Notes: generated by a model not told the origin, from the sequence alone. Shown: positions 34,461 to 48,690, counted from the first letter of the stretch. The stretch: DNA of 64,000 nucleotides from Candidatus Magasanikbacteria bacterium CG11_big_fil_rev_8_21_14_0_20_39_34 (GCA_002787355.1 PCWN01000007.1:86517-150516); one strand, 5' to 3'. Translations and numbers: made by a program.

Positions 34461-35147
34461 TTATGCACGATTGTATATCTTTGCTAACTTTTCTGGAGAA
34501 GTGTGAAAAAAGAAAAGAATTTTTATATAAAAGTATCGGAAGATACTTTTTATAATTCCATAGGATTCAATACGTCTTGGAGAGGTGGTACTTAGGGAAG
34601 AAATTTGGACTACAGGACCAAAGGCTTTCATTTTTTTGGAGAGGACAACATCTTCCATGAGTGGAATATCTGGAAAGCCTCCAATTTTATCAAAAACTTC
34701 TTTTTTGATAAATTGTGTTTGGTCGCCATGATAGATATGAAAAAGTTTTGCTCTACAGTTTGAATAAAAACTTATGAAGGAATAGATAATTTTTGATGTC
34801 TGAAAGTGTAATGTGAATGCCCCTCCAATATAGCCCTCGAGTATTTTTTTTGATATGGCGTTGAGTGCATTTTTTTCAAGTGTAGTATCTGCATGGAGAA
34901 AGAGAAGAATCTTTCCATTTGCATTTTTTGCCCCTATATTCATTTGGTTTGCTCGTCCGGGATATGTGGCATCAAATATTTTGGGGATAATATTTCCAGA
35001 ATAGGTATATATTTTTTCTTTTGTATATGAATCTACATTACTGTCTACAATAATAACTTCAAATTCCCCCTCGAGTTTTTCTAAATTTTGAAGCGTATAA
35101 TAGATACTCTCTTCTTCATTGTGTGTAGGGATAATAATAGAAAACAT
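34461..35147 (-). CDS. family-2 glycosyltransferase (TIGR04283-like)
   Basis: FSIIIPTHNEEESI and FLHADT, DxD-type GT-A signatures; paired with the downstream DUF2064 gene. Confidence 0.6.
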   Translation of the reverse strand: MFSIIIPTHNEEESIYYTLQNLEKLEGEFEVIIVDSNVDSYTKEKIYTYSGNIIPKIFDATYPGRANQMNIGAKNANGKILLFLHADTTLEKNALNAISKKILEGYIGGAFTLHFQTSKIIYSFISFYSNCRAKLFHIYHGDQTQFIKKEVFDKIGGFPDIPLMEDVVLSKKMKAFGPVVQISSLSTTSPRRIESYGIIKSIFRYFYIKILFFFHTSPEKLAKIYNRA

Positions 35148-35149
35148 AA

Positions 35150-35884
35150 TTAAAAAAGTTTATATATTTTTCCATTATTAAGAAGATGCATATAGGTAAG
35201 TGGAAGATAAGAATATTTCTTTTCCAACTCATTCTTATATGTGATCGTCTTCCAAAGGTTTTGAACATCTTCAAGTAAATCTATATCATATATTTTCTTC
35301 AAAGAATATATTTTGAGTCCTAGGGAGTTGATAATTTCAAGGGTCTGTTCGAATAAGTGATAACCTTCGGTATGTGAGTTCCAGTTAGTGATGGATGAAT
35401 AAATATCATGAGGCTCTTTCATACCTACGAGGCAATAGCCACCATCTTCTACTGGATTGAAGACCATATCATAGTGATCCAACTTCTTAAAGGCCTTACA
35501 AATCCTTTTGGGATGAAGGAGCGGAATATCTGAACCCACAATGATGACTTTTTTATAGTCGTTGAGCATTTGTTCTTGGATAAACTGCATATTGATAGGA
35601 AGAGTGTCTTCAATCTGGGGTATAAATTTTTCAACTTTACAGTTTTTGGGTGGTACAAAATTTCCACGGTGTCCCTTATGGAAAAATATGAGATCATAAT
35701 TTCGTTGGGGGAATGTACCATAGAGGGTTAACATATCTAAAATAAGCGAACGTGCCAGTTCGTTTGCTATGGTCTGGTTTTCTATAATTTTTCCAATGCG
35801 TGTTTTTCCCTCCAAATGTATATCTGGAATTCGAGAATAAAAAACAAGAGCATTGTTTAGTGTGTTTTGCATAGTGTTATGCAT
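35150..35884 (-). CDS. DUF2064 (TIGR04282-like) nucleotidyl/glycosyl-transferase fold protein
   Basis: VIIVGSDIPLLHPKRI...VFNPVEDGGYCLVGMKEP is the DUF2064 core. Start set at 35884 to limit overlap with the upstream gene. Confidence 0.55.
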   Translation of the reverse strand: MHNTMQNTLNNALVFYSRIPDIHLEGKTRIGKIIENQTIANELARSLILDMLTLYGTFPQRNYDLIFFHKGHRGNFVPPKNCKVEKFIPQIEDTLPINMQFIQEQMLNDYKKVIIVGSDIPLLHPKRICKAFKKLDHYDMVFNPVEDGGYCLVGMKEPHDIYSSITNWNSHTEGYHLFEQTLEIINSLGLKIYSLKKIYDIDLLEDVQNLWKTITYKNELEKKYSYLPLTYMHLLNNGKIYKLF

Positions 35885-37359
35885 TTTTTTCGAAAATAAC
35901 AGTAGATACTCAAGAGAATGGGGGGAATCCACACCAAAATTTGGTGAGAAAAAATTTGTCCATTCTCTATATATTTATACGTGTAATGTTCAATATTGTC
36001 AAAGTAAATCAAAAGATATTGAAATATAATAGTGAAAGAGAGGGCAAGTGCAAAGATGCGATTACGGACAAAAGGGATAAAGGCAAGTATCCACAGTACA
36101 TACCATGAGGCAACAATGGATGAAAAGAGGAGCAGAAAGGTAAATGATAGGGAACTCATAAAAATAAGATAAGAGGCATCTATTTTTTTGGATCTGAAAA
36201 AAATGCCATAGAGAGAAATAATACTCAGAAGGGTCAAGAGTGCGGAAAGTTTTTTTGCTAACACAAATGGATCGGATACATGCAAAAATTGTAAAAATGA
36301 AAAAAGAATTTGAAAAATACCAGGACTGAGAATCCATTCCTTACTAAAGTTTCGTAGAGATTCATACAGGAGCGGTGTTTGTATATGGAAAAAAAATGGA
36401 AAGTACATGAGTAGAAGAGAAAAAAATGTGGTTCCAAAAAACACAAAAAAATTCTTTAAAGGATATTTCATTTTGTACAAATAAATGAAAAAAAATGGGG
36501 CGAGTATTATGGGAAAAAACTTTGTGAGAATAAGAGCCGAAAAAAATATTCCAGCAAAGAAATAACGTTTTTTTAAGAAAAAATAAAGGGTAGAAAGAAG
36601 ACAAAAAATGATGATGGATTCTGTATGTGTGGTACTCAGGGTCTCAAAGAGAAAAAGGGGATTTATGATTAAAAAAGCAATAAAGAGTATATTGAGTTTA
36701 AGATGTTGTAGGAGCTTTATTCCAAAGTAAATGCTCAATGAATTAAATATCCAAAAAATGGATTTGAGTACAAAAGCACTATCTTCCTTTACTAGGTTAG
36801 ATATGGCAAAAATGTATTGGAGAAATGGAGGATAAATGGTGTGTGTCCATTTAAAATACATTATATCCCAATACCAGACCTGACTCAGATTGTGAAGCTC
36901 TGGAGTATCATGTATGGCCCAGGGGAAGTAGGCGAAGGGGTTTATTCCATGAATAAAAATTTTTCCATCCCAAAGATAGCGAAAAAAATCATTAAAATAT
37001 GCTGGCATATGAAAAAATATTCCTTGTGCCACTAAACTTAATGTAAGAGTCAGAAAAAAATAAAAGTTAAGTTGAGATTGAAATATTTTTCGACCGGTGT
37101 GAAAGTGGAGAAAATGTTTGAGTTTGGTTTCACTCTCAGAAGTATAAAATTTTTTTTGTGAAAGAGAAGAAAAGACAAAAAAGATATATAAAAGGGTTGT
37201 GTAGCAGGCAAACATGATGGATAAGTATTGCACAAGAGAAATGGTATGGTCAAGAGGATTGTGAAGTTCAGATATCTTCCAAGTTGCAAACAAAAAAATA
37301 GCTCCTACAATAATACTAAAGGATCGTAAAATTTTTTCTCGGTTAGTCAGAACTTTCAT
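35857..37359 (-). CDS. polytopic membrane protein, probable GT-C fold glycosyltransferase
   Basis: 500 aa, more than 12 TM, Phe-rich, no soluble domain; sits beside the GT2/DUF2064 pair. Confidence 0.35.
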   Translation of the reverse strand: MKVLTNREKILRSFSIIVGAIFLFATWKISELHNPLDHTISLVQYLSIMFACYTTLLYIFFVFSSLSQKKFYTSESETKLKHFLHFHTGRKIFQSQLNFYFFLTLTLSLVAQGIFFHMPAYFNDFFRYLWDGKIFIHGINPFAYFPWAIHDTPELHNLSQVWYWDIMYFKWTHTIYPPFLQYIFAISNLVKEDSAFVLKSIFWIFNSLSIYFGIKLLQHLKLNILFIAFLIINPLFLFETLSTTHTESIIIFCLLSTLYFFLKKRYFFAGIFFSALILTKFFPIILAPFFFIYLYKMKYPLKNFFVFFGTTFFSLLLMYFPFFFHIQTPLLYESLRNFSKEWILSPGIFQILFSFLQFLHVSDPFVLAKKLSALLTLLSIISLYGIFFRSKKIDASYLIFMSSLSFTFLLLFSSIVASWYVLWILAFIPFVRNRIFALALSFTIIFQYLLIYFDNIEHYTYKYIENGQIFSHQILVWIPPILLSIYCYFRKKCITLCKTH

Positions 37360-37813
37360 AGATATAATTCTCTACATCTTGCAAAAGTCTTTTTGCTCCT
37401 TCATGGGTGAGTTTTTCTTTTGCATCAGAAAAAGAAAGCCATTCAAAATCGGAAAGTTCTTTTTCCAGAAGTGTAACTTTCTGGCTTTGAACAAAACCAA
37501 TATAGTAAATTACCGTTTTATCACGTTTTTGATTTTCTATAAAGTACGTGTAGGTATCAGTAAATGTTGGATGTGGTAGTACCATAACATCGAGATCTAC
37601 TTCCTCCTTCATCTCGCGTTTGGCACAAGCTATAGCCGTTTGATCAATACTCTCCAAAGGATTTTTTGGGTCAGATGCTTGTATATCTATTTCTTCTACA
37701 TGTCCTTTGGGGAATCCCCAGTATTGCTCTTTGGCTTGTTGTATGACAAGAACTTCATAGGTTTGATCCGCTTTTTTGAAGAGTGGGATTATTCCATAAG
37801 ATTGTTCTTTCAT
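37343..37813 (-). CDS. NUDIX hydrolase (third copy, Ap4A hydrolase-like)
   Basis: GFPKGHVEE...AKREMKEEVDL Nudix-box-like segment; 156 aa. Confidence 0.55.
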   Translation of the reverse strand: MKEQSYGIIPLFKKADQTYEVLVIQQAKEQYWGFPKGHVEEIDIQASDPKNPLESIDQTAIACAKREMKEEVDLDVMVLPHPTFTDTYTYFIENQKRDKTVIYYIGFVQSQKVTLLEKELSDFEWLSFSDAKEKLTHEGAKRLLQDVENYIYESSD

Positions 37814-37823
37814 AGGCTTTTAT

Positions 37824-40178
37824 TTATTTTTTCCAAATTTTTTTGTATCTACCAAAACTGAGAACTCCGGTAGGACATACATTGACACAGGCACTACAGT
37901 TTACACACTCAACATCGTCCAGAGGATTTCCTTGTTGAGCGTAGGCCATAACATCAATTCCCATATGACAATTCTTTGTACACAGGCCACAGCTAATACA
38001 TTTTTTCTTATCAGAAAGTATATGCCATGAAGAAAATTTGTTGTAGATATGCATCAATGCTGCAAGAGGACATGCAAATCTACACCAAACACGTCCACCA
38101 AAAAAGAAGTACAAACCAACTCCAATAATTCCTGCAATGAAGGTGTCTACGATGATTTTGTACCCTGAAAGAAGCATTGCGTTGATTCCTTCAAGTGAAT
38201 GAGAGAGGGAAGGATTCCAACCAAGAATGTGGAGAATGGAAATAACAAATATGGAAAAGAGGATGATTTGTCCAAGATTTTCCCATTTTTTTGCACGTGG
38301 ACCATGGGAAGCGAGGGTACGGTATTCGTCTCCAAGAGTTTCTGCCATAGCTCCACAAGAGCATATCCAGCCACAATAGGCACCTTTTCCCCAACGTATG
38401 ACAATAAAGGGGATAATGACAAAGGTTTGTATGAGGCTTACGATAAGCCAGAACATACTTGGGTTGTCTGTAAAAACATTCCAAATAAAAAGTGGCCAGG
38501 CCAAAACAAAACCAACAAACCGCCACCATTCACCACCCAAAAATACTACATCCCTCCACCAACTATTGATAAGGCCATGGGCATCCATCCAGGGAAGGAG
38601 AAAGTTTGGAATCAAAAAGAGCGGGATGGCTTGGATAAAAAAGAGGAGGAGGGTTTGTTGTGTCACGTAGCGCTTTTTTGCAACGGCAATTCGCCTTGCC
38701 CCAAAAAGTGCTATGGTTACCGTATAGGAAAAACTATACCAGAAATAGGGGTCTTTTCCTCCGAGATAAAAATGAAAGTACTTACTGCCAAAAAAAGCAA
38801 AGAAGAAAAGAATCAGAACAAGAAAAAAGTACGTATTTTTTATGTAGGACCATTTGGTGGCGAAATATCTTTTCCAGTTTGCGATGAGATCATAGGCACA
38901 CACCAATCCCGAAACAAAAAGAACCAGTACAGATATCCATGCAATGCATTTGAAGATAATAGCTTCAAGAGACCCGGAAAAAAGTTCTGAAATAAAACTT
39001 CCACTGTCGGAAGAAAAAATTGCCTCGGAACTCTTTCCAAAGTAGACAATTCCCATAAAGGAAAGAGAAAATGCCATCCACCATTTTGTCATTTTGGTTT
39101 TTGCATTTTCAATTCGAATTCCCACTTTTTGAAAAAACTCGTAAGGAAGTTGTGTTCCTATCATTACAAATATAATATCAAAGGGAAGTGTTTCCTTTTT
39201 CCCGTTATTATCCATATCTACTTGAGATTCGGTAATTTTCAGTACATTTGAGTTCAGTAACACTGTAATCTTTTTTTCTTCTGCAAGTTTTTGAATCAAA
39301 AGAATATTGTCGGGTTTTGGCCGGGTAAGCGCTGCGCCCCGATAGGAGAGCGTAACTTGGTTTCCGGATTTTTCCAAAAGTTGGACGGATTCCATAGCAT
39401 TATCTCCACCCCCGATAACCAAAATTCTTTTATTTTTAAATTCACCAGGATCAAAGAGTTTATTATACACATGGGGAAGATTTTCTCCTTCTATATTGAG
39501 TCTTCTATGGTTTCCACTCTTTCCAATGGAGAGAATAATTTTTTGGGATGTGTATTCTGCTCCGGATTGTGTTTTTACAGTATGTCCATTTGGACCCAAC
39601 ACGGCAATATCTTCTACTTTTTCATTAAAGGCAATATTGAGATCATGTTTTTGTGCAATCGTTTTCAGATGAGAGAGAAGATCTTCTTTGGTGGAACCCT
39701 GCATGGTAAGTTCACTGGTTTCTTCCATGTCCTTTGGCTCATAAAACATGGGTTTTCCCTTTGGAAAGTCCTCAATGGTATTAAAGAGTCTATCCGTTGC
39801 TTCAAGTATGATATATTTGTATCCACGTTTTTTCGCTTCAATTCCTGCAGAAATTCCAGCCGGACCGGCACCTACGATAACTAAATCATAGGTATTTTCA
39901 TCTTTTTTTGAGTTTTTTGATGTTTGCATCTTGTGGTCTGCATCCATCTCATTGAAAATCTGCTTATTCTTTTTCCACATCTCAAAAATAGGGGAACGAA
40001 TAAGATCTGCCGCCTTTTGGGTAGCAAATTTAAGAAGGGGGATACCTGTGAGATCACCTACTATATAAATGCCCTTTACGGAGGTTTCACCATCTTCGGT
40101 GAGTTCTGGGTAGTTTACGACAAAACCCGTTGGGTTATCCTTTTGGATCCATTGAAAATAACGTTGGATAATGTTCAT
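37824..40178 (-). CDS. multidomain redox protein: FAD/NAD(P)-dependent oxidoreductase + NapH/CcoG-like CxxxCP membrane domain + 2x[4Fe-4S] ferredoxin domain
   Basis: YDLVIVGAGPAGISAGIEA and ILVIGGGDNAMES Rossmann motifs; about 9 TM with GWICSCGAMAE and WCRFACPLAAL; C-terminal CISCGLCTKNC...CVNCSACVNVCP. Confidence 0.6.
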   Translation of the reverse strand: MNIIQRYFQWIQKDNPTGFVVNYPELTEDGETSVKGIYIVGDLTGIPLLKFATQKAADLIRSPIFEMWKKNKQIFNEMDADHKMQTSKNSKKDENTYDLVIVGAGPAGISAGIEAKKRGYKYIILEATDRLFNTIEDFPKGKPMFYEPKDMEETSELTMQGSTKEDLLSHLKTIAQKHDLNIAFNEKVEDIAVLGPNGHTVKTQSGAEYTSQKIILSIGKSGNHRRLNIEGENLPHVYNKLFDPGEFKNKRILVIGGGDNAMESVQLLEKSGNQVTLSYRGAALTRPKPDNILLIQKLAEEKKITVLLNSNVLKITESQVDMDNNGKKETLPFDIIFVMIGTQLPYEFFQKVGIRIENAKTKMTKWWMAFSLSFMGIVYFGKSSEAIFSSDSGSFISELFSGSLEAIIFKCIAWISVLVLFVSGLVCAYDLIANWKRYFATKWSYIKNTYFFLVLILFFFAFFGSKYFHFYLGGKDPYFWYSFSYTVTIALFGARRIAVAKKRYVTQQTLLLFFIQAIPLFLIPNFLLPWMDAHGLINSWWRDVVFLGGEWWRFVGFVLAWPLFIWNVFTDNPSMFWLIVSLIQTFVIIPFIVIRWGKGAYCGWICSCGAMAETLGDEYRTLASHGPRAKKWENLGQIILFSIFVISILHILGWNPSLSHSLEGINAMLLSGYKIIVDTFIAGIIGVGLYFFFGGRVWCRFACPLAALMHIYNKFSSWHILSDKKKCISCGLCTKNCHMGIDVMAYAQQGNPLDDVECVNCSACVNVCPTGVLSFGRYKKIWKK

Positions 40179-40356
40179 ATTTGGCTCAATTAAGATAATT
40201 TTATTATAGTTGAAAAGGACAGGAAGTGCAAGTGGGGATCAATGGAATGGTCTCTTTTTTTGAATATATCCACTTTTTTCGTTCCTTGATTTTTTCTCTT
40301 TCCCATGGTATATTAACCTCAACTTAATGAAGCTCATTTAACGTTTTTTTTTGCAT

Positions 40357-41463
40357 ATGAAAATACTTGTTTGTGGAGGTGCTGGGTTTATCGGATCAAA
40401 TTTTGTCCATCATATTTTGGAAAAATATCCGCATTATGAAGTGGTAAACTATGATAAGCTTACCTATGCGGGGAATTTAGATAACCTCTCGGATATTGAG
40501 AATAATTTAGAATATCGCTCTCGATATACCTTTGTAAAGGGAGATATTTGTGATGCTGCTCGCTTGGAGGAAGTGATGCAAATGCATCGAATTACCCATA
40601 TCATCAACTTTGCTGCAGAGACACATGTGGACCGTTCTATACATGGAGATTGTTCTGATTTTGTAATGACCAATACATATGGGGTTCTCATGCTTTTGAA
40701 TATTGTTCGTAAATATCAAATAGAAAAATTTGTAAATGTGTCCACAGATGAAGTTTACGGATCTCTTGATTTGGATGATGGAAAAAGGTTTACGGAAAGT
40801 ACTCCGATTGAGCCAAACATGCCCTATGCTGCGGCAAAAGCCGGTGGAGATCTTATGTGCAGGAGTTATAGTGTTTGTCATAATATTCCGGTTGTTGTAA
40901 CCCATTGTTCAAATAACTATGGTCCATATCAATTTCCAGAAAAACTTATTCCTATTTCAGTCTTTCGTTTATTAAAAAATAAGCCCATTACCATTCATGG
41001 AACTGGAAAAAATATCCGTGATTGGATTTATGTTCGGGATCATTGCGAGGCACTTGATCTAATGCTTCATAAAGGAGTTCCAGGTGAAGTCTATAACGTG
41101 GGAGTAGACAATGAACGTTCAAATTTGGATATTGCAAAACTTGTTTTGCAGGCGATGAATAAGCCAGATGATATGATTGAATTTGTTGCAGATCGTCCAG
41201 GAAATGATCTTCGTTATGCCATTGATTCGAGTAAAATGGAGAGTTTGGGATGGAAACCAAAATATGGCAGAGATAAATTTGAAATGGGACTCGCAGAAAC
41301 CATAAACTGGTATTTGACCAACAAGGATTGGGTTGAATCACTTTGGAAAAAACATGAACAGGCCTATGATATAAACCACACCCCAACTCGAAAGAGTAGC
41401 GGGAAGTCAGACGTTGTTCGTGAACCAAAAACCACCCCAAGACTGGCACAAGAAAATCAATAA
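40357..41463 (+). CDS. rfbB: dTDP-glucose 4,6-dehydratase
   Basis: KILVCGGAGFIGSNFV, YDKLTYAGN, NVSTDEVYG and the PYAAAK YxxxK catalytic motif. Confidence 0.9.
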   Translation: MKILVCGGAGFIGSNFVHHILEKYPHYEVVNYDKLTYAGNLDNLSDIENNLEYRSRYTFVKGDICDAARLEEVMQMHRITHIINFAAETHVDRSIHGDCSDFVMTNTYGVLMLLNIVRKYQIEKFVNVSTDEVYGSLDLDDGKRFTESTPIEPNMPYAAAKAGGDLMCRSYSVCHNIPVVVTHCSNNYGPYQFPEKLIPISVFRLLKNKPITIHGTGKNIRDWIYVRDHCEALDLMLHKGVPGEVYNVGVDNERSNLDIAKLVLQAMNKPDDMIEFVADRPGNDLRYAIDSSKMESLGWKPKYGRDKFEMGLAETINWYLTNKDWVESLWKKHEQAYDINHTPTRKSSGKSDVVREPKTTPRLAQENQ

Positions 41464-41483
41464 TTCTATTTACAAAAAAATAT

Positions 41484-41894
41484 ATGCTAAAGTTTGAGCA
41501 AACACAGTTAAAAGTAGTAGATGACCCAAAAGGGCTATATACTTTTTGTGAAGTAAAGAATTATATAGATTGGGAAATTAAAAGGGTATACTTTATTCAA
41601 AACTGTAAAGGAACCGGTCAGCACTGTCATTTTGTAGAAAATGAATTTTTTACTTTGGTAAAAGGAACCTGTACTGCTATTATTGATCGTGGAAATGGTA
41701 AGGAAGATATTCCTATGAAGGGGCCGGGAGACGGTATCCACGTAGGAAATCATGTTTGGCATGGATTTAAAGACATGAGTGAAGATTGTATTTTGCTTGC
41801 TTTTTCTTCTACAAACTATAGTCCTGATAGGTCAGACTATTGTGAGGACTATGATGAGTACCAAAAGATTTTAAAAGAAAAAATGGGGGCATAG
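41484..41894 (+). CDS. WxcM/FdtA-like cupin (dTDP-4-keto-6-deoxyhexose 3,4-isomerase-like)
   Basis: 136-aa cupin between rfbB and rfbD; size and His-containing beta-barrel pattern resemble FdtA/QdtA. Confidence 0.4.
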   Translation: MLKFEQTQLKVVDDPKGLYTFCEVKNYIDWEIKRVYFIQNCKGTGQHCHFVENEFFTLVKGTCTAIIDRGNGKEDIPMKGPGDGIHVGNHVWHGFKDMSEDCILLAFSSTNYSPDRSDYCEDYDEYQKILKEKMGA

Positions 41895-41906: not shown

Positions 41907-42221
41907 ATGATATTTGATGTTACTTTCAATCAAGCGCGAGAACTTGAGGGAATACACAAAGATGTGTTTTTTGTAGATGTTCGTGAAAAAGATGAATGGC
42001 AAACGGGCCATATAAAAGATGCACAACATATTCCTTTTTCACTTTTTGATCATCTTTTTAAAGAGCGACTTCCAGACAAAAAAGCAGCCTACATAGTGTA
42101 CTGTGCAAGTGGCGGGAGAAGCAGAAGAGTCTGTGATTTTTTGGAGTATGAGGGATATGAAAATATCTATAATCTTTTAGGAGGAATTTCCGGGGTCCCG
42201 GAAAGTGAAGTTGAGGTATAA
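41907..42221 (+). CDS. rhodanese-like single-domain sulfurtransferase
   Basis: Active-site loop CASGGRS (CxxGxR) near the C-terminus; 104 aa. Confidence 0.7.
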   Translation: MIFDVTFNQARELEGIHKDVFFVDVREKDEWQTGHIKDAQHIPFSLFDHLFKERLPDKKAAYIVYCASGGRSRRVCDFLEYEGYENIYNLLGGISGVPESEVEV

Positions 42222-42222
42222 T

Positions 42223-43491
42223 ATGAGTCAAAAAATAATTGAAATTATGGCCCCTGCGGGGTCATTTGAGTCTTTACAGGCGGCACTCTTTGCAGGAGCA
42301 AATTCTGTCTACTTTGGTATAGAACAGCTCAATATGCGTGCCCATGCTGCCAACAATTTTCAAATTTCTGACCTGCCAGAAATTGTTCGTCTTTGTGAAG
42401 AAAAAAATTGTAAAACCTATCTCACACTGAATACCATACTGTATAACCATGATATTGTCCTCATGAAAAAAATTATTGATGAGGTAAAAAAAGTTGGTGT
42501 GACTGCGATTATTGCAAGTGATATTGCTGCTATCTCCTATGCAAATGAAGTAGGGGTAGAAGTACATATTTCTACACAGGCCAATGTTTCCAATATTGAA
42601 GCAGTAAAATTTTTTGCAAAATTTGCAGATGTGATTGTGCTTGCTCGTGAGCTTCCTCTTACACACATAAAAAGCATTTGTGAGACTATTGAAAAAGAAC
42701 ACATTTGTGGTCCGAAAGGGAATCTTGTAGAAATTGAAATTTTTGCGCATGGTGCACTGTGTGTTGCTATCTCTGGGAAGTGTTATATGAGTTTGGCTAC
42801 ACAAAATTCTTCAGCAAATCGTGGAGCATGTTTACAAAATTGTAGAAGGTCCTATCGGGTGATAGATGAAGAAACAGGAGAGGAACTGGTTTTGGATAAC
42901 AAATATGTTATGTCTCCAAAGGATTTATGTACCATTGGCTTTATTGATAAAATTTTGGATGCCGGTGTAACGGTACTCAAGCTGGAAGGACGTGGGAGAC
43001 CTGCAGATTATGTACATACGGTAACCAAGACATATCGCGATGCTGCAAATGCCTATCTTGAAGGAACCTACACTCCGGAAAAAATTGAGTCTTGGACGCA
43101 TGATTTGGAAACGGTATTTAACAGAGGATTTTGGCATGGTGGATACTACATGGGCAAACAGCTTGGTGAATGGAGCGGGTTGTATGGATCCAAGGCCAGT
43201 GAGGAAAAAATATATCTTGGAAAAGGACTTCATTATTATGAAAAACCACAGATTGGTGAGTTTACTTTGGAAAGTGGGGAACTTTCTTTGGAGGATGAAG
43301 TATATATTATTGGTCCGACAACGGGAGTCCTCAGACAAAAAGTAACAGCATTGCGCGTAGACGAAGGGGATGTAACGGTCGCAAAAAAAGGGCAAATTTT
43401 TACCATGCCGGTAGAAAAAAAAGTACGATCAAGTGATAAACTGTTTGTGATCAAAAAAAGGAATACAGAATATGCCAAAGGTAACGCATGA
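42223..43491 (+). CDS. peptidase U32 family protein
   Basis: N-terminal TIM-barrel portion IEIMAPAGSFE...E. coli YhbU-like blocks and GALCVAISGKCYMS; ATG 42223. Confidence 0.75.
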   Translation: MSQKIIEIMAPAGSFESLQAALFAGANSVYFGIEQLNMRAHAANNFQISDLPEIVRLCEEKNCKTYLTLNTILYNHDIVLMKKIIDEVKKVGVTAIIASDIAAISYANEVGVEVHISTQANVSNIEAVKFFAKFADVIVLARELPLTHIKSICETIEKEHICGPKGNLVEIEIFAHGALCVAISGKCYMSLATQNSSANRGACLQNCRRSYRVIDEETGEELVLDNKYVMSPKDLCTIGFIDKILDAGVTVLKLEGRGRPADYVHTVTKTYRDAANAYLEGTYTPEKIESWTHDLETVFNRGFWHGGYYMGKQLGEWSGLYGSKASEEKIYLGKGLHYYEKPQIGEFTLESGELSLEDEVYIIGPTTGVLRQKVTALRVDEGDVTVAKKGQIFTMPVEKKVRSSDKLFVIKKRNTEYAKGNA

Positions 43492-43723
43492 TAAGGGAGA
43501 GTGTATTGGTTGTGGCTCTTGTACACTGTATGCAGAGCATTATTTTGAGATAGATAAAGAAGATGATGCCAAAGCGCATTTAATACGTTCTACACAAAAA
43601 GGAAACATGGAAATTTTGGATATAGAAGACTTTGAAATGGAGGTAAATATTGATGCGGCAAGAGGATGTCCCATGAGCTGTATCAAGGTATTGGGAGATG
43701 ATGGAAGAATTTTGGGGGAATAA
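43472..43723 (+). CDS. small ferredoxin-like protein (Cys-x2-Cys-x2-Cys ... Cys-P)
   Basis: ECIGCGSCTLYAE ... ARGCPMSCI; 83 aa; overlaps the U32 stop by 20 nt. Confidence 0.55.
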   Translation: MPKVTHDKGECIGCGSCTLYAEHYFEIDKEDDAKAHLIRSTQKGNMEILDIEDFEMEVNIDAARGCPMSCIKVLGDDGRILGE

Positions 43724-43758: not shown

Positions 43759-43872
43759 TTGGTGCTTGCCATTTTTGTTTTTGGGTTCAGAGAAAAGCAA
43801 CAAAGGTTGTTTTTCCCTGGACCCAGTGGTGGTCCGTGTATCCGTGCCGTTGGCACACAGGAAAATGGGGGC

Positions 43873-44586
43873 ATGATGCGAATCAAGCCTTGGAGTGAGC
43901 GCTCGGCGCTCACTCGCCTCCTCGTGATCGAGGGGGAGGTGAATTCGGTTGAGGAACTCGCGACGCGACTGGCCGCGGAGGGACTGCTGGAGTGGGCCAG
44001 CAACAACTCCCTCCGGGCTGTCGTTTCCGAGATCGTCGGTGAGGGCGGCTACAAGGAAGCCGCCCGATGCCGGCAGATCCAGGGAGGCGTCAACCTCGGT
44101 GAGGAGAGCATCGAGATGTTCCGCGCGTGCGCGGAGCGTCTCATCCGGATCGGGGGGGATGAGAACCTCCCCACGATCACCCGAGCGCTCGCTCTGCACA
44201 ACGCCGCTTCCTGCCTCGCGGCGTGGAACGGCGTGGATCTCGATCGCCAGGAGTCACTCAACGAGCGGTCGGTCGAGTTGCTGGAGCAGGTCCCCGAGGC
44301 GAACCGAGGCGACGACTGGTGGGAGGCCTACAGGAAGCCTGTCGTCGGCCTCTTCGAGGCCGGCGTGAAGGCTTGGGATCCCTTCATGTACTTCCAGATT
44401 ATCCGGCGGATGATCGAGAACGGTTCCAAGGACTCAGCGGGTCGTCTCGAGTACTTCATCCGGCGAATGGCCTCCGATCTGGGGGCCATGGCTGGGGTGG
44501 TCCTCGACGAGGAGCTCGGAGCTCACAACCAGCGAGATCGTTTGCTGGCCCTCATGGGGCACCTGCAGGCACTCGTCGCCGCCTGA
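43873..44586 (+). CDS. hypothetical alpha-helical protein encoded in a compositionally foreign (GC-rich) ORF
   Basis: 238 aa (MMRIKPWSERSALTRL...LQALVAA). GC3-rich codons (ctc/atc/ggc/gag) unlike every other gene here. About 107-nt structured GC-rich leader; strong terminator downstream. Confidence 0.55.
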   Translation: MMRIKPWSERSALTRLLVIEGEVNSVEELATRLAAEGLLEWASNNSLRAVVSEIVGEGGYKEAARCRQIQGGVNLGEESIEMFRACAERLIRIGGDENLPTITRALALHNAASCLAAWNGVDLDRQESLNERSVELLEQVPEANRGDDWWEAYRKPVVGLFEAGVKAWDPFMYFQIIRRMIENGSKDSAGRLEYFIRRMASDLGAMAGVVLDEELGAHNQRDRLLALMGHLQALVAA

Positions 44587-44644
44587 TTCACCCCCCACCT
44601 ACGACCTTACCTTCGGCGGCCAGCACCCACATTGGCCGCAAAAA

Positions 44645-44696
44645 ACACCTGAGTTTGTATGTATGCCATATAGCTTCAGGTGTTTTTTTATTTTTG
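44645..44696 (+). terminator. rho-independent terminator after the GC-rich ORF
   Basis: ACACCTGA-(23 nt)-TCAGGTGT followed by TTTTTTTATTTTT. Confidence 0.6.
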
Positions 44697-44956
44697 GATA
44701 AATTCATTGTCATTGCGAGCTGAGTATACAGCGTGGCAATCCACCCACCTGAATATACGCCAATTATGGAATTTCCTCTTCCTAACAAGGAGATTGCCGC
44801 GTCGTCGTGGCGGACTCCTTGTAATGACAAAGTGAAGGATATTCAAAAGTATTATACAACTGGATTACCTGTATATATAGATAATTTTTTGTTTGCAAAA
44901 AAAAGGAAAAGAAGATAGAATAAGGGAAAAAGCTAAGATATATATTTTGTGGGTTT

Positions 44957-45817
44957 ATGAAAAAAATTCTTATTTTAGGTGCAAAGGGGACACTTGGGGG
45001 AGCTCTAGTAGAGGAGTTTTCAGGGGATGCTACCGTCATTGCCTGGGACAAGGAAGATTTGGATCTGGCTCATATGGGTGATGCAAAAGAAAAGATTCAG
45101 GGGGTTCAACCAGATATTATCATCAATGCCGTTGCAATAAATGCCGTGGATGCCATAGAGGAAGATGAGGAAGTTTACGAAGTTGCCAAACAAGTGAATG
45201 GTCATGCCCCGGGGGAATTGGCAAAGATTGCAAAAGAACTTTCTATTCCATTTGTCCACTATTCAACGGATTATGTTTTTGATGGAGAAAATACATCTGG
45301 ATATCAGGAAGACGATATTCCGCATCCACTCAGTCGTTATGGGTATATTAAAAGACTTGGCGAACAAGAAGTAGAAAATGCCGGTGGAGAGTATTTTATT
45401 ATTCGTTTATCCAGATTATTTGGGAAACCAGGTATAAGTGAACATTCCAAGCGAAGTTTTGTTGATACCATGATTTTTTTGGCAACAGAAGGTGGAAAAA
45501 CTGAACTCAATGTGGTGGAGGATCAGTTTGGATCACCAACCTACGCACCGGATCTTGCAAAATTTACGCGACATCTTTTGGAAAGTGGAAAAGAACCAGG
45601 GATATATCATGGCGCAAATGATGGATCATGCAGTTGGTATCAATGGTGTAAAAAAGTTTTTGAGATAAAGGGGATTACTATCCCAGTTCATAAAGTACCC
45701 CATACAGATTTTCCACGTCCGGCACCGGTACCACAATGTTCAACACTCAAAAATACAAAGTTTCAAAAACAAAGGACTTGGCAAGAAGCATTAGAAGCAT
45801 ATTTGGCAGGTAAATAA
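44957..45817 (+). CDS. rfbD: dTDP-4-dehydrorhamnose reductase
   Basis: MKKILILGAKGTLGGALV Rossmann N-terminus, the YSTDYVFDG block and the overall RmlD pattern. Confidence 0.8.
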   Translation: MKKILILGAKGTLGGALVEEFSGDATVIAWDKEDLDLAHMGDAKEKIQGVQPDIIINAVAINAVDAIEEDEEVYEVAKQVNGHAPGELAKIAKELSIPFVHYSTDYVFDGENTSGYQEDDIPHPLSRYGYIKRLGEQEVENAGGEYFIIRLSRLFGKPGISEHSKRSFVDTMIFLATEGGKTELNVVEDQFGSPTYAPDLAKFTRHLLESGKEPGIYHGANDGSCSWYQWCKKVFEIKGITIPVHKVPHTDFPRPAPVPQCSTLKNTKFQKQRTWQEALEAYLAGK

Positions 45818-45822
45818 AATAT

Positions 45823-46695
45823 ATGAAAATGGATTTGAGTATTATCACTGTCTGCACCAATGATAAAGAACGTATTTTGGAAGTACTCCAGTCTGTTTTT
45901 GATGGTACAAAAGGTATCTCTTTTGAATACATTGTTTCAGATAATGGATCAACGGATGGCTCTGTAGAAACTATACGAAAAGAGTTCCCACAAGTAAAGA
46001 TTGTAGAAAATGGAAAAAATGTGGGTTTTGGTGCTGCAAATAATGCTGCGCTCCAGCTGGCAACAGGGGAATATATTCTTCTTCTAAATCCTGATATGAG
46101 GATTCATCCAGGAAGTTTGGAAAAAATTCTTGAATGGGCAAGAAATCACGATAACGTTGGGATTGTGAGTCCAAAACTGGTAGATCAAAACGGAAAATTT
46201 CAACAAAATGCAAAGCCCAGACGTTTCCCCGAATTTTGGGATCAAGCCGCAATTTTGCTAAAATTACCACATATTTTCCCAAAAATATTGGATAGATATA
46301 TGTATATGGGGTTTGATCCAGAAAAAGAACAGAAAGTGGACTCCGTGCGTGGTTCGTTTATGTTGATTCGTAAGGATATTCTTGATACACTAGGATGGGC
46401 TTTTGATCCAAGGTATTTTATTTGGTTTGAAGATGTGGATACCTGCCGTGAGGTGCAGAGGTTAGGATATGCTGTCATGTATTCTCCAGTGATTGAATGT
46501 GTGGATTATGTAGGTCAAACATTCAAACGCCTTCCAACCCTTCAGAAGCAAAAGTGGTTTACGACATCTATGGTTCAATACTTTAAAAAGTGGGAACCGT
46601 GGTATAAGTGGATGCCACTTGTGTTTCTCAAATACATTGGTATATTTCTTGCCTGGATTTACGATACTTTTTTTCTTAAAAAAATAAAAAAATAA
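45823..46695 (+). CDS. family-2 glycosyltransferase
   Basis: SIITVCTND, DNGSTDGS and LLNPDMRI: GT-A DxD-type motifs. Confidence 0.7.
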   Translation: MKMDLSIITVCTNDKERILEVLQSVFDGTKGISFEYIVSDNGSTDGSVETIRKEFPQVKIVENGKNVGFGAANNAALQLATGEYILLLNPDMRIHPGSLEKILEWARNHDNVGIVSPKLVDQNGKFQQNAKPRRFPEFWDQAAILLKLPHIFPKILDRYMYMGFDPEKEQKVDSVRGSFMLIRKDILDTLGWAFDPRYFIWFEDVDTCREVQRLGYAVMYSPVIECVDYVGQTFKRLPTLQKQKWFTTSMVQYFKKWEPWYKWMPLVFLKYIGIFLAWIYDTFFLKKIKK

Positions 46696-46715
46696 TTTTT
46701 TCTCATTGCTTTGAT

Positions 46716-47810
46716 ATGCCAAAACTTTCCATAAACATGGTGGTATTTCATGAAAAGGAAATGAAATATATTGCCTATCTTTTTGATTCTCTAAAAAAGC
46801 AAACTTTTCAAGATTTTGAAATGCTTCTTGTAGATAACAGCGACGCAGGAAGTAGTATTATAAAAATGGTAGAAGAAAAGGCAAAAGAATTGGGAAATCC
46901 ATACAAGATAATCAAAAGCAATGGAAATGTAGGATTTGCAGCAGGACACAACAGCGGGTATAAAGAAGCAAAAACTCCTTTTGTACTCCTTTTGAACCCA
47001 GACATGTACTTGCTTCCGGATGTTCTCTCACGAATGGTAGATGTTTTGGAAAGTAACAGTAAGGCGGCTTCAGTTTCTACAAGACTCATGCGTTGGGATT
47101 TTGAAAAAGTAGAAAAAAGTAGTAAGGACAGTGTAGAAGAACAGGCACGGGAAGGGTTTACCAATCAAGTGGATGCAATAGGTATTCGTTTACTGAGAAA
47201 TCGTCGTGCGGTAGAATGGTTTGCACAAGAATTGTGGGATAAAGGAGAAGAAACGCCTCCTATGTTAGGCAATATTTTAGATAAACAAATTTTAGAAGTT
47301 TTCGGAGTTTCTGGTGCTTTGGCTATGTACAGAAAGGAAGTTGCAGATACAATACTTCTTCCGGGTGATAATCTGTTTGATCCTACGTATCACAGTTATA
47401 AAGAAGATTTAGATTTAGCATATAGACTTCGTAATGCTGGGTATACATCATATGTTGTCCTTGATTCCATTGCTTACCACGATAGAACGGCAGCAGCACC
47501 AAAAGGTTTATCCGATTTGAAGGCGGCAATGAATAAGGGAAAACAATCCGAATATGTAAAATTTCATTCCTACAAAAATCACCTTCGTACACTGTATAAA
47601 AATGAATATTGGCAAAATTTTTTTTGGGATTTTCCTTGGATTGTTTGGTTTGAACTAAAAAAATTTGCGTATATGTTGTTCATTCACCCCGTCATTTTGT
47701 GGAAAAGTGTACGAGAAATTGTAAAAGACTGGAAGTATACAAGATCTGCGCGTCGGCAAATTGTAGAAGATAGGAAACTTTATTGGAAAGGACTAAGAAG
47801 ATGGTTTTAA
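46716..47810 (+). CDS. family-2 glycosyltransferase
   Basis: LLVDNSDAGS, LLLNPDMYL GT2 blocks. Confidence 0.65.
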   Translation: MPKLSINMVVFHEKEMKYIAYLFDSLKKQTFQDFEMLLVDNSDAGSSIIKMVEEKAKELGNPYKIIKSNGNVGFAAGHNSGYKEAKTPFVLLLNPDMYLLPDVLSRMVDVLESNSKAASVSTRLMRWDFEKVEKSSKDSVEEQAREGFTNQVDAIGIRLLRNRRAVEWFAQELWDKGEETPPMLGNILDKQILEVFGVSGALAMYRKEVADTILLPGDNLFDPTYHSYKEDLDLAYRLRNAGYTSYVVLDSIAYHDRTAAAPKGLSDLKAAMNKGKQSEYVKFHSYKNHLRTLYKNEYWQNFFWDFPWIVWFELKKFAYMLFIHPVILWKSVREIVKDWKYTRSARRQIVEDRKLYWKGLRRWF

Positions 47811-47814
47811 TCCT

Positions 47815-48666: not shown

Positions 48667-48690
48667 CAAATTTCATTTTAGTTCTTCACT

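What the first reader, a model, noticed from the sequence alone, without database searches (positions are those of the whole stretch)
37824..40178. 784-aa fusion of FAD-dependent pyridine-nucleotide oxidoreductase, NapH/CcoG-type CxxxCP membrane polyferredoxin domain and 2x[4Fe-4S] ferredoxin
One minus-strand ORF combines two Rossmann-type dinucleotide-binding motifs (YDLVIVGAGPAGISAGIEA; ILVIGGGDNAMES), about 9 TM helices carrying two Cys-x3-Cys-Pro-like motifs (GWICSCGAMAE; WCRFACPLAAL), and a C-terminal CISCGLCTKNC...CVNCSACVNVCP ferredoxin domain. NapH/CcoG/NosR-type CxxxCP membrane ferredoxins normally partner with separate soluble reductases. A covalent fusion to a thioredoxin-reductase-like flavoenzyme suggests a self-contained transmembrane electron conduit from NAD(P)H to an extracytoplasmic acceptor, which is unusual for a reduced genome.
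Basis: partly seen in the sequence, partly recalled or inferred. Interest (0 to 1): 0.55.

Follow-up and report, generated by a model that had tools for sequence, protein, structure and literature searches.

The report
NADPH flavoprotein fused to NapH-like membrane ferredoxin
This is a real, widely conserved but uncharacterised membrane enzyme that most likely takes electrons from NADPH through FAD and iron-sulfur clusters into a NapH-type membrane module, and its gene travels with a cell-envelope sugar-transfer gene set rather than with respiration genes.

Summary
It is not a frameshift artefact. The identical protein is on record from a Candidatus Magasanikbacteria (CPR) genome. Full-length homologs occur in at least 578 species genomes across many phyla, and relatives at only 33-39% identity keep the same architecture.

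Anatomy:
- A YpdA/thioredoxin-reductase-fold FAD/NAD(P)H domain with no cysteine, circularly permuted so that the FAD "GD" segment lies at residues ~22-63.
- Four extra TM helices, then a NapH-type 4-TM core. The first Cys motif is C-x3-C-x-C and the second is C-x3-C-P.
- A C-terminal 2x[4Fe-4S] ferredoxin.

Loop charges and the NapH alignment place the flavoprotein and all Fe-S cysteines in the cytoplasm. No conserved redox site is visible on the outer face.

Where the membrane ferredoxin is stand-alone, a different flavoprotein gene abuts it. The gene recurrently neighbours DUF2064 (TIGR04282), a TIGR04283 GT2, a GT-C glycosyltransferase and exported DUF547. This is the "arsenosugar-associated" module. 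The window carries that module as a five-gene block but has no ArsS.

Best reading: an NADPH-driven membrane Fe-S reductase serving that envelope pathway, with the acceptor unresolved. It is a new variant of a known kind.

The parts
37824..40178 (-). Whole gene: 784-aa flavoprotein / NapH-like membrane / 2x[4Fe-4S] ferredoxin fusion
   Evidence: ORF. Domains. The identical protein P0001 and more than 100 full-length homologs.
39990..40115 (-). Residues ~22-63: relocated C-terminal FAD-binding 'GD' segment (GIYIVGDLTGIPLLK), showing the flavoprotein fold is circularly permuted
   Evidence: A family profile of residues 1-65 hits only the GD-motif segment of GR (5u1o 290-333, E 1.6e-3), AhpF (1hyu 472-498, E 5e-3), LipDH and similar enzymes. 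G41, D42, L43, T44, G45, P47 and L48 are invariant.
39093..39890 (-). Residues 97-362: FAD (GAGPAG) plus NAD(P)H (GGGDNA) two-dinucleotide-binding domain of YpdA/TrxR/TrxR-type-FNR fold, with no cysteine
   Evidence: Pyr_redox_3, E 9e-41. YpdA 7a7b, E 4e-30. Foldseek hits to 7a7b, 3ab1 and 6gar. Cys list.
38691..39095 (-). Residues 362-496: four additional TM helices (H1-H4) that precede the NapH-type core
   Evidence: Helices in the AF2 model. Hydropathy and K+R loop counts over 39 homologs.
38013..38666 (-). Residues 505-722: NapH-type core. H5, H7, H8 and H9 correspond to NapH TM1-4. H6 (551-569) is a Trp-rich interfacial helix that aligns with NapH's periplasmic loop.
   Evidence: NCBIfam NapH/MauN over 557-775. 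Alignment with E. coli NapH. Loop charges.
38355..38375 (-). Cys motif 1, C602-x3-C606-S-C608 (YCGWICSCG): clade-specific C-x3-C-x-C in place of NapH's C-x3-C-P, predicted cytoplasmic
   Evidence: All three Cys are invariant in 39 homologs, and the motif is also present in the stand-alone relatives P0171 and P0182.
38067..38084 (-). Cys motif 2, C699-x3-C703-P704 (WCRFACP), predicted cytoplasmic
37851..38012 (-). Residues 723-776: 2x[4Fe-4S] ferredoxin domain (CISCGLCTKNC ... CVNCSACVNVCP)
   Evidence: Fer4_9, Fer4_21 and Fer4_7. PDB ferredoxin-type hits. All eight Cys invariant.
37343..37813 (-). Nudix hydrolase, 10 bp downstream on the same strand (a partner specific to the CPR loci)
   Evidence: Pfam NUDIX, E 4e-14. 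Also present in CPR loci L003, L004 and L007.
35857..37359 (-). GT-C-fold membrane glycosyltransferase (MptA_B/GT87-like), overlapping the Nudix stop
   Evidence: Weak GT87 hit. PIG-M 9wno, E 0.004. Orthologs carry PF26314. Found in 23/85 target loci against 2/38 ArsS-anchored loci.
35150..35881 (-). DUF2064 / CofC-like nucleotide-diphospho-sugar-transferase-fold protein (TIGR04282-like)
   Evidence: ORF. tblastn. TIGR04282 100 bits, below the 134 cutoff. PDB 3cgx, E 2e-11.
34461..35147 (-). Family-2 glycosyltransferase, a member of TIGR04283 ('arsenosugar biosynthesis glycosyltransferase')
   Evidence: TIGR04283 208 bits, above the 182 cutoff.

Best explanation
The gene encodes a self-contained, membrane-anchored NAD(P)H:iron-sulfur oxidoreductase.

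Proposed electron path:
1. NADPH (preference inferred from the GGGDNA motif and invariant R280/R286) reduces FAD. The FAD sits in a circularly permuted YpdA/thioredoxin-reductase-fold domain that has no redox-active cysteine.
2. FAD reduces the C-terminal 2x[4Fe-4S] ferredoxin. That domain returns to the cytoplasmic face after eight TM helices.
3. Electrons pass to the five invariant cysteines (C-x3-C-x-C plus C-x3-C-P) at the cytoplasmic mouth of a NapH-type 4-TM core.
4. They are delivered to an acceptor bound in or at the membrane domain.

Gene neighbourhood says the enzyme is an accessory of an envelope glycoconjugate pathway. That pathway is built from a CofC-like DUF2064, a TIGR04283 family-2 glycosyltransferase, a GT-C lipid-linked-sugar transferase and an exported DUF547 protein. 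In some bacteria this module is joined to ArsS/ArsM arsenosugar genes. It is not part of a nitrate, N2O or oxygen respiratory system.

Status of the steps: steps 1-2 are strongly supported by the architecture, step 3 is inferred, and step 4 (the identity and side of the acceptor) is unresolved. My preferred acceptor is a lipid-phase, polyprenyl-phosphate-linked intermediate or another lipid-soluble substrate of the co-encoded pathway.
For: Architecture and conservation.

No Cys in residues 1-410, and GAGPAG in place of YpdA's Cys-containing motif. This rules out thiol-disulfide chemistry and matches TrxR-type ferredoxin-NADP reductases (3ab1, 6gar).

Circular permutation.

Cytoplasmic placement of the flavodomain, both Cys motifs and the ferredoxin:
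- K+R counts over 39 homologs.
- Alignment to E. coli NapH.

Flavoprotein and membrane ferredoxin form one functional unit:
- The fusion is kept down to 33% identity.
- In stand-alone forms a different, ferredoxin-NAD+-reductase-type flavoprotein gene overlaps the start of the membrane ferredoxin gene (L088, L154, L159).

Linkage to the glycoconjugate module:
- The window block is target-Nudix-GT-C-DUF2064-GT2, with gaps or overlaps of 17 bp or less.
- Over the 85 target loci the counts are DUF2064 30, TIGR04283-type GT2 28 (median gap 5-8 bp, co-directional), GT-C 23 and DUF547 35. These come from CPR, Ignavibacteriota, Fibrobacterota, Chrysiogenota, Acidobacteriota, Verrucomicrobiota and others.
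- All CPR loci have GT-C and DUF2064.
- Stand-alone relatives at 33-36% identity sit in the same context.
Against: - No biochemical data exist for any member, and no paper was found in seven literature searches.
- About 40% of the loci, including all Leptospira loci, show none of the partner genes within 10 kb.
- Anchoring on ArsS, the membrane ferredoxin appears in only 2 of 38 loci, while DUF2064 and GT2 appear in 12-14. The enzyme is therefore dispensable for the module in most lineages.
- Whether the five cysteines bind a cluster or form a redox disulfide is unknown, even for NapH and NosR (PMC5928378).
- The loci are not phylogenetically independent, so the counts overstate independence.
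Confidence: 0.5

Rival explanations
1. Transmembrane electron export. The protein carries NAD(P)H electrons across the membrane to extracytoplasmic acceptors, such as the exported Cys-pair protein DUF547 or exported methionine sulfoxide reductase. This would be a quinone-independent, flavin-independent counterpart of DsbD/CcdA or MsrQ.
For: - PF12801 NapH-like modules are regarded as a modular transmembrane electron-transfer apparatus (PMC8238504).
- 53 of 85 loci carry at least one exported or outward-acting partner.
- Nearly all DUF547 partners have a signal peptide, lipobox or TM anchor, and a ~97%-conserved NCA..SCP Cys pair.
- Exported MsrA lies divergently next to the gene in 13 loci from several phyla.
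- In plants DUF547 is fused to a glutaredoxin-like domain (PMC13621322).
Against: - There is no conserved Cys, His pair or FMN_bind domain on the predicted outer face. C411 and C427 are not conserved.
- All Fe-S motifs are predicted to be cytoplasmic, so nothing visible bridges the bilayer.
- The window itself has neither DUF547 nor MsrA.
- The DUF547 cysteines could simply form a structural disulfide.
Confidence: 0.25
2. NAD(P)H:quinone oxidoreductase. The NapH-type core is a quinone/quinol site as proposed for NapH, and the enzyme feeds or drains the quinone pool.
For: - NapH membrane segments were proposed to be the quinol-oxidising domain (PMC5928378).
- Homology to NapH over residues 557-775.
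- Invariant polar residues lie inside TM helices: Q508, T509, Q516, Q584 (≥90% conserved), D678, Y481 and Y485.
Against: - The family is conserved in CPR lineages (Magasanikbacteria, Nomurabacteria, Peregrinibacteria). By general knowledge these lack quinone biosynthesis and respiratory chains. This could not be tested beyond the 64-kb window.
- No respiratory genes are recurrent neighbours.
- D678 and Q584 are not shared with NapH.
Confidence: 0.12
3. Dedicated reductase that primes the radical-SAM enzyme ArsS (arsenosugar synthesis) with low-potential electrons.
For: - ArsS (TIGR04167, above cutoff) is in the same cluster in 21 of 85 loci, and in L086.
- An ArsM-like radical-SAM fusion sits next to the split form in L088.
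- A flavoprotein plus ferredoxin is the classic way to activate radical-SAM enzymes.
Against: - Reverse test: only 2 of 38 ArsS loci of 8 kb or more carry the membrane ferredoxin, and none carries the fused form. The positive control recovered 84/84.
- There is no ArsS or ArsM in the window.
- The idea does not explain the conserved 8-TM domain.
Confidence: 0.04
4. An ordinary thioredoxin/bacillithiol-type disulfide reductase as annotated in databases, or an assembly/frameshift artefact that joins two genes.
For: - Database names include 'pyridine nucleotide-disulfide oxidoreductase' and 'Thioredoxin reductase'.
- The best NCBIfam hit is YpdA.
Against: - All NCBIfam scores are far below cutoff: YpdA 147 against 340, and TrxR 93 against 343.
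- There is no CxxC and no YpdA-type Cys in the flavodomain.
- The fusion is reproduced in hundreds of independent genomes.
Confidence: 0.02

Closest known systems
NapH (quinol dehydrogenase ferredoxin subunit of periplasmic nitrate reductase; TIGR02163 / NF007013)
   Same: - A 4-TM core with a Cys motif right after the 2nd and 4th helix.
- A C-terminal cytoplasmic 2x[4Fe-4S] domain.
- 24% identity over the aligned C-terminal 290 residues (495-784), with all 12 shared cysteines aligned.
   Different: - Scores 60 and 47 bits against cutoffs of 213 and 234.
- The first motif is C-x3-C-x-C rather than C-x3-C-P.
- Four extra N-terminal TM helices and a fused NAD(P)H flavoprotein.
- No nap genes nearby.
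- Present in organisms without nitrate respiration.
NosR / NirI and RdhC (PceC) NapH-like membrane proteins
   Same: They share the membrane module of four TM segments plus two CX3CP motifs. NosR also shares the C-terminal 2x[4Fe-4S] domain (PMC5928378). They are viewed as modular electron-transfer devices (PMC8238504).
   Different: - NosR and PceC carry an extracytoplasmic, ApbE-flavinylated FMN_bind domain. This protein has none.
- This protein instead has a cytoplasmic FAD/NAD(P)H domain.
- NosR model score is 46 against 1000.
- No nos, rdh or ApbE genes in the context.
YpdA/Bdr bacillithiol disulfide reductase and TrxR-type ferredoxin-NADP+ reductases (PDB 7a7b, 3ab1, 6gar)
   Same: Two-dinucleotide-binding fold, 23-28% identity, Foldseek E 1e-13 to 3e-18. 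Like the FNRs, it lacks the CxxC disulfide.
   Different: - Circularly permuted: the GD FAD segment has moved to the N-terminus.
- It lacks YpdA's active-site Cys, with GAGPAG instead.
- It is covalently tied to its ferredoxin and to a membrane domain.
NQR/RNF-like single-polypeptide systems described by Meheust et al. 2021 (membrane NqrB/RnfD-like domain fused to a cytosolic NqrF-like NAD-binding domain)
   Same: The concept is the same: one polypeptide couples a cytosolic NAD(P)H-binding module to a membrane electron-transfer module (PMC8238504).
   Different: The folds of both modules are unrelated. Those systems are defined by an associated flavinylated extracytosolic protein, which is absent here.
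ArsS-associated 'arsenosugar biosynthesis' gene neighbourhood (TIGR04167, TIGR04169, TIGR04282, TIGR04283)
   Same: - The window's GT2 is a TIGR04283 member, and its DUF2064 is TIGR04282-like.
- In Ignavibacterium and other genomes the fusion gene lies inside complete ArsS clusters.
   Different: - The window has no ArsS, ArsM or TIGR04169 gene.
- The membrane ferredoxin is rare in ArsS-anchored loci, at 2 of 38.
- GT-C is enriched with the fusion gene rather than with ArsS: 23/85 against 2/38.

Membership tests
NapH/MauN (TIGR02163; NapH equivalog NF007013) | Curated model score at or above the family cutoff | tested here: not met
   60.3 bits against 213.05, and 46.7 against 234.
NapH/MauN (TIGR02163; NapH equivalog NF007013) | 4-TM core with two C-x3-C-P motifs following TM2 and TM4 | tested here: inconclusive
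   The core and the second motif are present. The first motif is C-x3-C-S-C, with no Pro and an extra invariant Cys.
NapH/MauN (TIGR02163; NapH equivalog NF007013) | C-terminal 2x[4Fe-4S] ferredoxin domain | tested here: met
   Fer4_9, Fer4_21 and Fer4_7 hits. Eight invariant Cys that align with NapH.
NapH/MauN (TIGR02163; NapH equivalog NF007013) | nap operon context (napG, napA and others) | tested here: not met
   No nap genes among the neighbours in the window or in 85 related loci.
NosR/NirI (NF046105) and RdhC/PceC | Extracytoplasmic FMN_bind domain with a flavinylated Thr | tested here: not met
   No FMN_bind hit in Pfam at E up to 1. NosR model score 46 against 1000.
CcoG/FixG/RdxA | Fer4_18-type cluster domain and a C-terminal Ig-like FixG_C domain | tested here: not met
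   Fer4_18 scores 16.6 bits against a cutoff of 27. No FixG_C hit appears among the 25 best Pfam families listed, and the protein ends 8 residues after the ferredoxin.
Thioredoxin reductase (TIGR01292) | Redox-active CxxC in the NADPH domain, and a score above cutoff | tested here: not met
   No Cys in residues 1-410. Score 93 against 343.
YpdA/Bdr bacillithiol disulfide reductase (TIGR04018) | Score above cutoff, and the active-site Cys in the N-terminal GGGPCG motif (the latter from my own knowledge of the Bdr literature) | tested here: not met
   Score 147 against 340. The motif here is GAGPAG, conserved across the family.
TrxR-type ferredoxin-NADP+ reductase | Two-dinucleotide-binding TrxR fold without CxxC, reducing an Fe-S protein | tested here: inconclusive
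   The fold and the lack of Cys are met. A ferredoxin partner is fused. Activity was not testable. The fold is permuted, so it is not an orthodox member.
TIGR04283/TIGR04282 'arsenosugar biosynthesis' gene set (neighbourhood membership) | Neighbouring GT2 passes TIGR04283 | tested here: met
   208 bits against 182.
TIGR04283/TIGR04282 'arsenosugar biosynthesis' gene set (neighbourhood membership) | Neighbouring DUF2064 passes TIGR04282 | tested here: not met
   100 bits against a cutoff of 134. It is the best and only hit.
TIGR04283/TIGR04282 'arsenosugar biosynthesis' gene set (neighbourhood membership) | ArsS radical SAM (TIGR04167) and/or ArsM in the cluster | tested here: not met
   No tblastn hit in the 64-kb window. 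The rest of the genome could not be searched.

The most novel reading that the evidence does not exclude
The protein is the engine of a previously unrecognised way of powering redox chemistry outside the cytoplasmic membrane. In this reading a single polypeptide takes NADPH electrons through FAD, two [4Fe-4S] clusters and a five-cysteine site, then across a NapH-type membrane module. It uses no quinone, haem or extracytoplasmic flavin. The electrons go to exported partners: the Cys-pair protein DUF547, exported MsrA, or a lipid-linked sugar handled by the GT-C enzyme. That would make it a third route, beside DsbD/CcdA and MsrPQ, for supplying reducing power to the envelope. It would also explain why quinone-less CPR bacteria keep it.
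Probability: 0.2. Interest if true: 0.8.

Novelty: new variant of a known kind. Interest (0 to 1): 0.5.

Why it matters
How NapH/NosR/PceC-type membrane modules move electrons, and what their CX3CP cysteines do, has been open for two decades. One reason is that their donors and acceptors are separate and hard to reconstitute.

This family has the donor built in, so the module's chemistry could be followed by NADPH oxidation in one purified protein.

The family also adds an unannotated redox component to the poorly understood TIGR04282/TIGR04283/GT-C/DUF547 ('arsenosugar-associated') gene set. It shows that this set exists without ArsS in CPR bacteria, which suggests the module makes or modifies an envelope glycoconjugate more generally.

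For CPR biology, it is one of very few membrane redox enzymes kept in these reduced genomes.

Tried and rejected
1. Frameshift or mis-assembly fusion. Rejected: the identical protein is on 7 contigs and there are hundreds of full-length homologs.
2. Disulfide reductase (TrxR/YpdA). Rejected: there are no cysteines in the flavodomain, and scores are far below the cutoffs.
3. Dedicated ArsS reductase. Rejected by the reverse co-occurrence test.
4. My first neighbour clustering merged GT-C with DUF2064 through fusion proteins. The 'GT-C 36 loci, median gap 13.5 bp' figure is therefore wrong. It was recounted with seed-anchored profiles: GT-C 23, DUF2064 30, GT2 28.
5. Fold comparison of the membrane half led nowhere. 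The model has pLDDT 63 only, and Foldseek against the PDB found nothing at E<1. Sequence and profile searches of the PDB found only generic ferredoxin domains.
7. Promoter and terminator scans over the block were at or near shuffle expectation.
8. Rfam found nothing in the window.
9. DUF547 has no solved relative.
10. Seven literature searches found no paper on this family.
11. The Leptospira, Scalindua and Myxococcota neighbourhoods gave no further consistent partner beyond DUF547 and a Crp-type regulator.
Full report
**Observation.** The window holds a 784-aa ORF at 37824..40178 on the minus strand, starting with ATG.
- Pfam finds Pyr_redox_3 (residues 100-361, E 9e-41) and Pyr_redox_2.
- It also finds two Fer4_5 (PF12801) stretches and a dicluster ferredoxin at 726-772.
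- NCBIfam aligns the NapH/MauN model to residues 557-775. YpdA and TrxR models align to 97-366, all far below their cutoffs.
- The closest solved flavoprotein is YpdA/Bdr 7a7b, E 4e-30.
- The protein has 15 cysteines. None lies in residues 1-410, five are in the two membrane motifs (C602, C606, C608, C699, C703) and eight are in the ferredoxin.

The only corrections are that motif 1 is C-x3-C-S-C, and that one of the nine helices is probably not membrane-spanning.

**Origin and reality of the fusion.**
- The identical protein (P0001) is recorded as 'pyridine nucleotide-disulfide oxidoreductase' from a Candidatus Magasanikbacteria (CPR) metagenome-assembled genome, on 7 contigs.
- More than 100 homologs cover 99% of its length at 43-65% identity. 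They include Ignavibacterium album ('Thioredoxin reductase'), Myxococcales, Chitinivibrionales and Bacteroidetes.
These include cultured Leptospira, Scalindua, Fibrobacterota, Acidobacteriota, Verrucomicrobiota and several CPR lineages.
- The membrane half alone was searched against 1.84 billion cluster representatives. It has 163 hits at E<=1e-30.
- All seven 600-1000 aa hits tested, at 33-39% identity where that was reported, keep the flavoprotein-membrane-ferredoxin order.

The fusion is therefore old and stable, and is not an artefact.

**Anatomy.** Thirty-nine homologs were aligned. Invariant features are:
- the FAD motif G103xG105xxG108;
- the NAD(P)H motif G256-G257-G258-D259-x-A261 with R280;
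- all 13 motif cysteines;
- many residues inside TM helices (Y481, Y485, R495, R496, Q508, T509, Q516, W552, W561, W577, D678).

The N-terminal 65 residues are also strongly conserved (GIYIVGDLTGIPLLK). A profile of that segment hits essentially only the C-terminal FAD-binding 'GD' segment of two-dinucleotide-binding flavoenzymes: GR 290-333 at E 1.6e-3, AhpF 472-498 at E 5e-3, and dozens more at the equivalent position. The YpdA alignment stops at residue 359, just before the first TM helix. Together these show that the flavoprotein fold is circularly permuted, with its last FAD-binding element moved to the N-terminus. The chain can then leave the flavodomain straight into the membrane.

**Topology.** The AlphaFold2 model (pLDDT 77, pTM 0.69) shows nine long helices between residues 362 and 695.
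- K+R counts averaged over 39 homologs mark these loops as inside: 427-446, 497-506, 597-630 (motif 1) and 696-722 (motif 2 plus ferredoxin).
- They mark these loops as outside: 384-403, 469-477, 530-550 and 653-672.
- That pattern requires the weakly hydrophobic, Trp-rich helix 551-569 to be interfacial.
- In the alignment with E. coli NapH this helix falls on NapH's periplasmic TM1-TM2 loop. H5, H7, H8 and H9 match NapH TM1-4.

The result is 8 TM helices, with the flavodomain, both Cys motifs and the ferredoxin all cytoplasmic, as established for NapH. No conserved Cys, His pair or FMN_bind domain is predicted on the outer face.

**The flavoprotein and the membrane ferredoxin are one functional unit.** Stand-alone membrane ferredoxins of this clade exist (P0171, P0182, P0221).
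- In L088 a 448-aa flavoprotein gene of a different subfamily overlaps the start of the membrane ferredoxin gene. Its best matches are ferredoxin-NAD+ reductases.
- The same arrangement occurs in L154 and L159.

A non-orthologous NAD(P)H flavoprotein in the same position argues that the flavodomain's job is to feed electrons to the Fe-S module.

**Gene neighbourhood in the window.** The gene heads a co-directional block with gaps or overlaps of 17 bp or less:
- target;
- Nudix (37343-37813);
- a GT-C-fold membrane glycosyltransferase (35857-37359);
- DUF2064 (35150-35881);
- a family-2 glycosyltransferase (34461-35147) that passes the TIGR04283 cutoff, named by NCBI 'arsenosugar biosynthesis glycosyltransferase'.

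**Gene neighbourhood elsewhere.**
- In Ignavibacterium album the ortholog is followed by a TIGR04283+TIGR04282 fusion, DUF547, TIGR04169, ArsS (TIGR04167), an AglJ-like GT2 and a GT-C.
- Over 85 loci, seed-anchored profiles give DUF2064 30 and TIGR04283-type GT2 28, with median gaps of 5-8 bp and 26-28 co-directional. They give GT-C 23 and AglJ-like GT2 14.
- Cluster-profile (HMM) searches give DUF547 35, ArsS 21, TIGR04169-like 15 and exported MsrA 13.
- Fifty of 85 loci have at least one of these module or ArsS-associated genes. They come from many phyla, and every CPR locus has GT-C and DUF2064.
- Stand-alone relatives at 33-36% identity lie in the same context.
- Leptospira copies are not linked to these genes.

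**Reverse test.** Eighty metagenome loci were anchored on ArsS, 38 of them 8 kb or longer.
- TIGR04169-like is in 34, DUF2064 in 14, the GT2 in 12 and DUF547 in 9.
- GT-C is in only 2.
- The membrane ferredoxin is in only 2, both split forms.
- The positive control recovered 84/84.

GT-C is thus enriched with the fusion gene relative to ArsS (23/85 against 2/38, Fisher p about 0.007). DUF2064 and GT2 are shared equally. The loci are not phylogenetically independent, so the p-value is only indicative. The enzyme is therefore an optional accessory of the DUF2064/GT2/GT-C/DUF547 module, and is not a general ArsS partner.

**Partners and sidedness.**
- Nearly all DUF547 partners carry a signal peptide, lipobox or (in CPR) a TM anchor. 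They also keep an NCA..SCP cysteine pair at about 97% conservation.
- The linked MsrA proteins are also exported.
- DUF547 is uncharacterised. In plants it is fused to a glutaredoxin-like domain (PMC13621322).
- GT-C enzymes act on lipid-linked sugars at the outer face (established knowledge). The window's GT-C weakly resembles PIG-M.

**Comparison with known systems.**
- PF12801 NapH-like proteins are described as a modular transmembrane electron-transfer apparatus. They usually carry, or sit next to, an ApbE-flavinylated extracytosolic FMN domain (PMC8238504).
- NapH, NosR and RdhC share four TM segments and two CX3CP motifs. Whether those motifs bind a cluster or form a disulfide is unsettled (PMC5928378).
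- The present protein shares that core and the two [4Fe-4S] sites. It fails every curated model cutoff, lacks the FMN domain, and has a variant first motif, four extra helices and a fused, permuted NAD(P)H flavoprotein.
- No solved structure resembles the membrane half.
- No paper on the family was found.

**Verdict.** The best-supported mechanism is NADPH -> FAD -> 2x[4Fe-4S] -> five-Cys site at the cytoplasmic mouth of a NapH-type membrane module -> an acceptor in or at the membrane. The enzyme serves the co-encoded envelope glycoconjugate module. The first two transfers are strongly implied by the architecture. The last two are inferred, and the acceptor and its side are unknown. This is a new variant of a known kind, of moderate interest. 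Its main value is as a self-contained model for NapH-type modules and as an unannotated redox component of the TIGR04282/TIGR04283/GT-C/DUF547 gene set in CPR and other bacteria.

Noticed in passing
window 41907-43723: A rhodanese (41907-42221), a peptidase-U32 family protein (42205-43491) and an overlapping 83-aa single-cluster ferredoxin (43472-43723) lie in a row on the + strand. U32 proteins with a dedicated ferredoxin recall O2-independent RNA or quinone hydroxylases. The function here was not examined.
   Followed up: no
window 44001-46000: G+C jumps to 0.47 against about 0.36 for the rest of the window. The stretch holds odd-looking ORFs at 43759-44586 (+) and 44588-44830 (-). Rfam finds no RNA there. 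It could be foreign DNA or an unrecognised RNA.
   Followed up: no
window 1-64000: No Rfam family reaches its gathering score anywhere in the 64 kb. GC skew is positive in almost every 2-kb bin, and most genes are on the + strand. The five-gene block studied here is one of the few minus-strand stretches, with skew about 0 at 38001-40000.
   Followed up: no
L004 14122-15516 (CPR locus): A second flavoprotein closes the same cluster after a TM-anchored DUF547. It is a class-I pyridine nucleotide-disulfide oxidoreductase resembling dihydrolipoyl dehydrogenase (569 bits against a cutoff of 619). This is another hint of thiol/disulfide chemistry in the module.
   Followed up: partly
L011, L017, L020, L025, L036-L039, L052, L064, L066, L072, L076: Exported methionine sulfoxide reductase (MsrA, some MsrAB-length) genes lie close to the fusion gene in 13 loci from several phyla, always on the opposite strand.
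   Followed up: partly
L088 1620-4658: A 1012-aa protein combines a radical-SAM/SPASM domain, an ArsM-like arsenite methyltransferase domain (228 bits against a cutoff of 263) and an MbdU-like metal-binding domain. It sits next to the split flavoprotein and membrane-ferredoxin pair.
   Followed up: partly
L086 3339-5287 and 6724-7563: Two tandem NapH-like membrane ferredoxin genes with no flavoprotein gene in the 7.6-kb contig lie between DUF2064/GT-C and ArsS. A multihaem cytochrome c gene follows ArsS. This may be a variant with a different electron donor.
   Followed up: no
L006 (contig CAZEYK010000009.1): A MAG labelled 'uncultured Gammaproteobacteria' carries a homolog at 64% identity with CPR-type synteny (GT-C, DUF2064, GT2). 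The contig may be mis-binned.
   Followed up: no
window 40351-41894 and 44957-49818: The block is flanked by sugar-nucleotide and glycosyltransferase genes. A dTDP-glucose 4,6-dehydratase-like gene and an FdtA-like isomerase were identified by Pfam. ORFs at 44957-49818 were listed but not annotated, and they looked like an RmlD-like reductase and several GT2-type genes. This fits an envelope-glycan region.
   Followed up: partly
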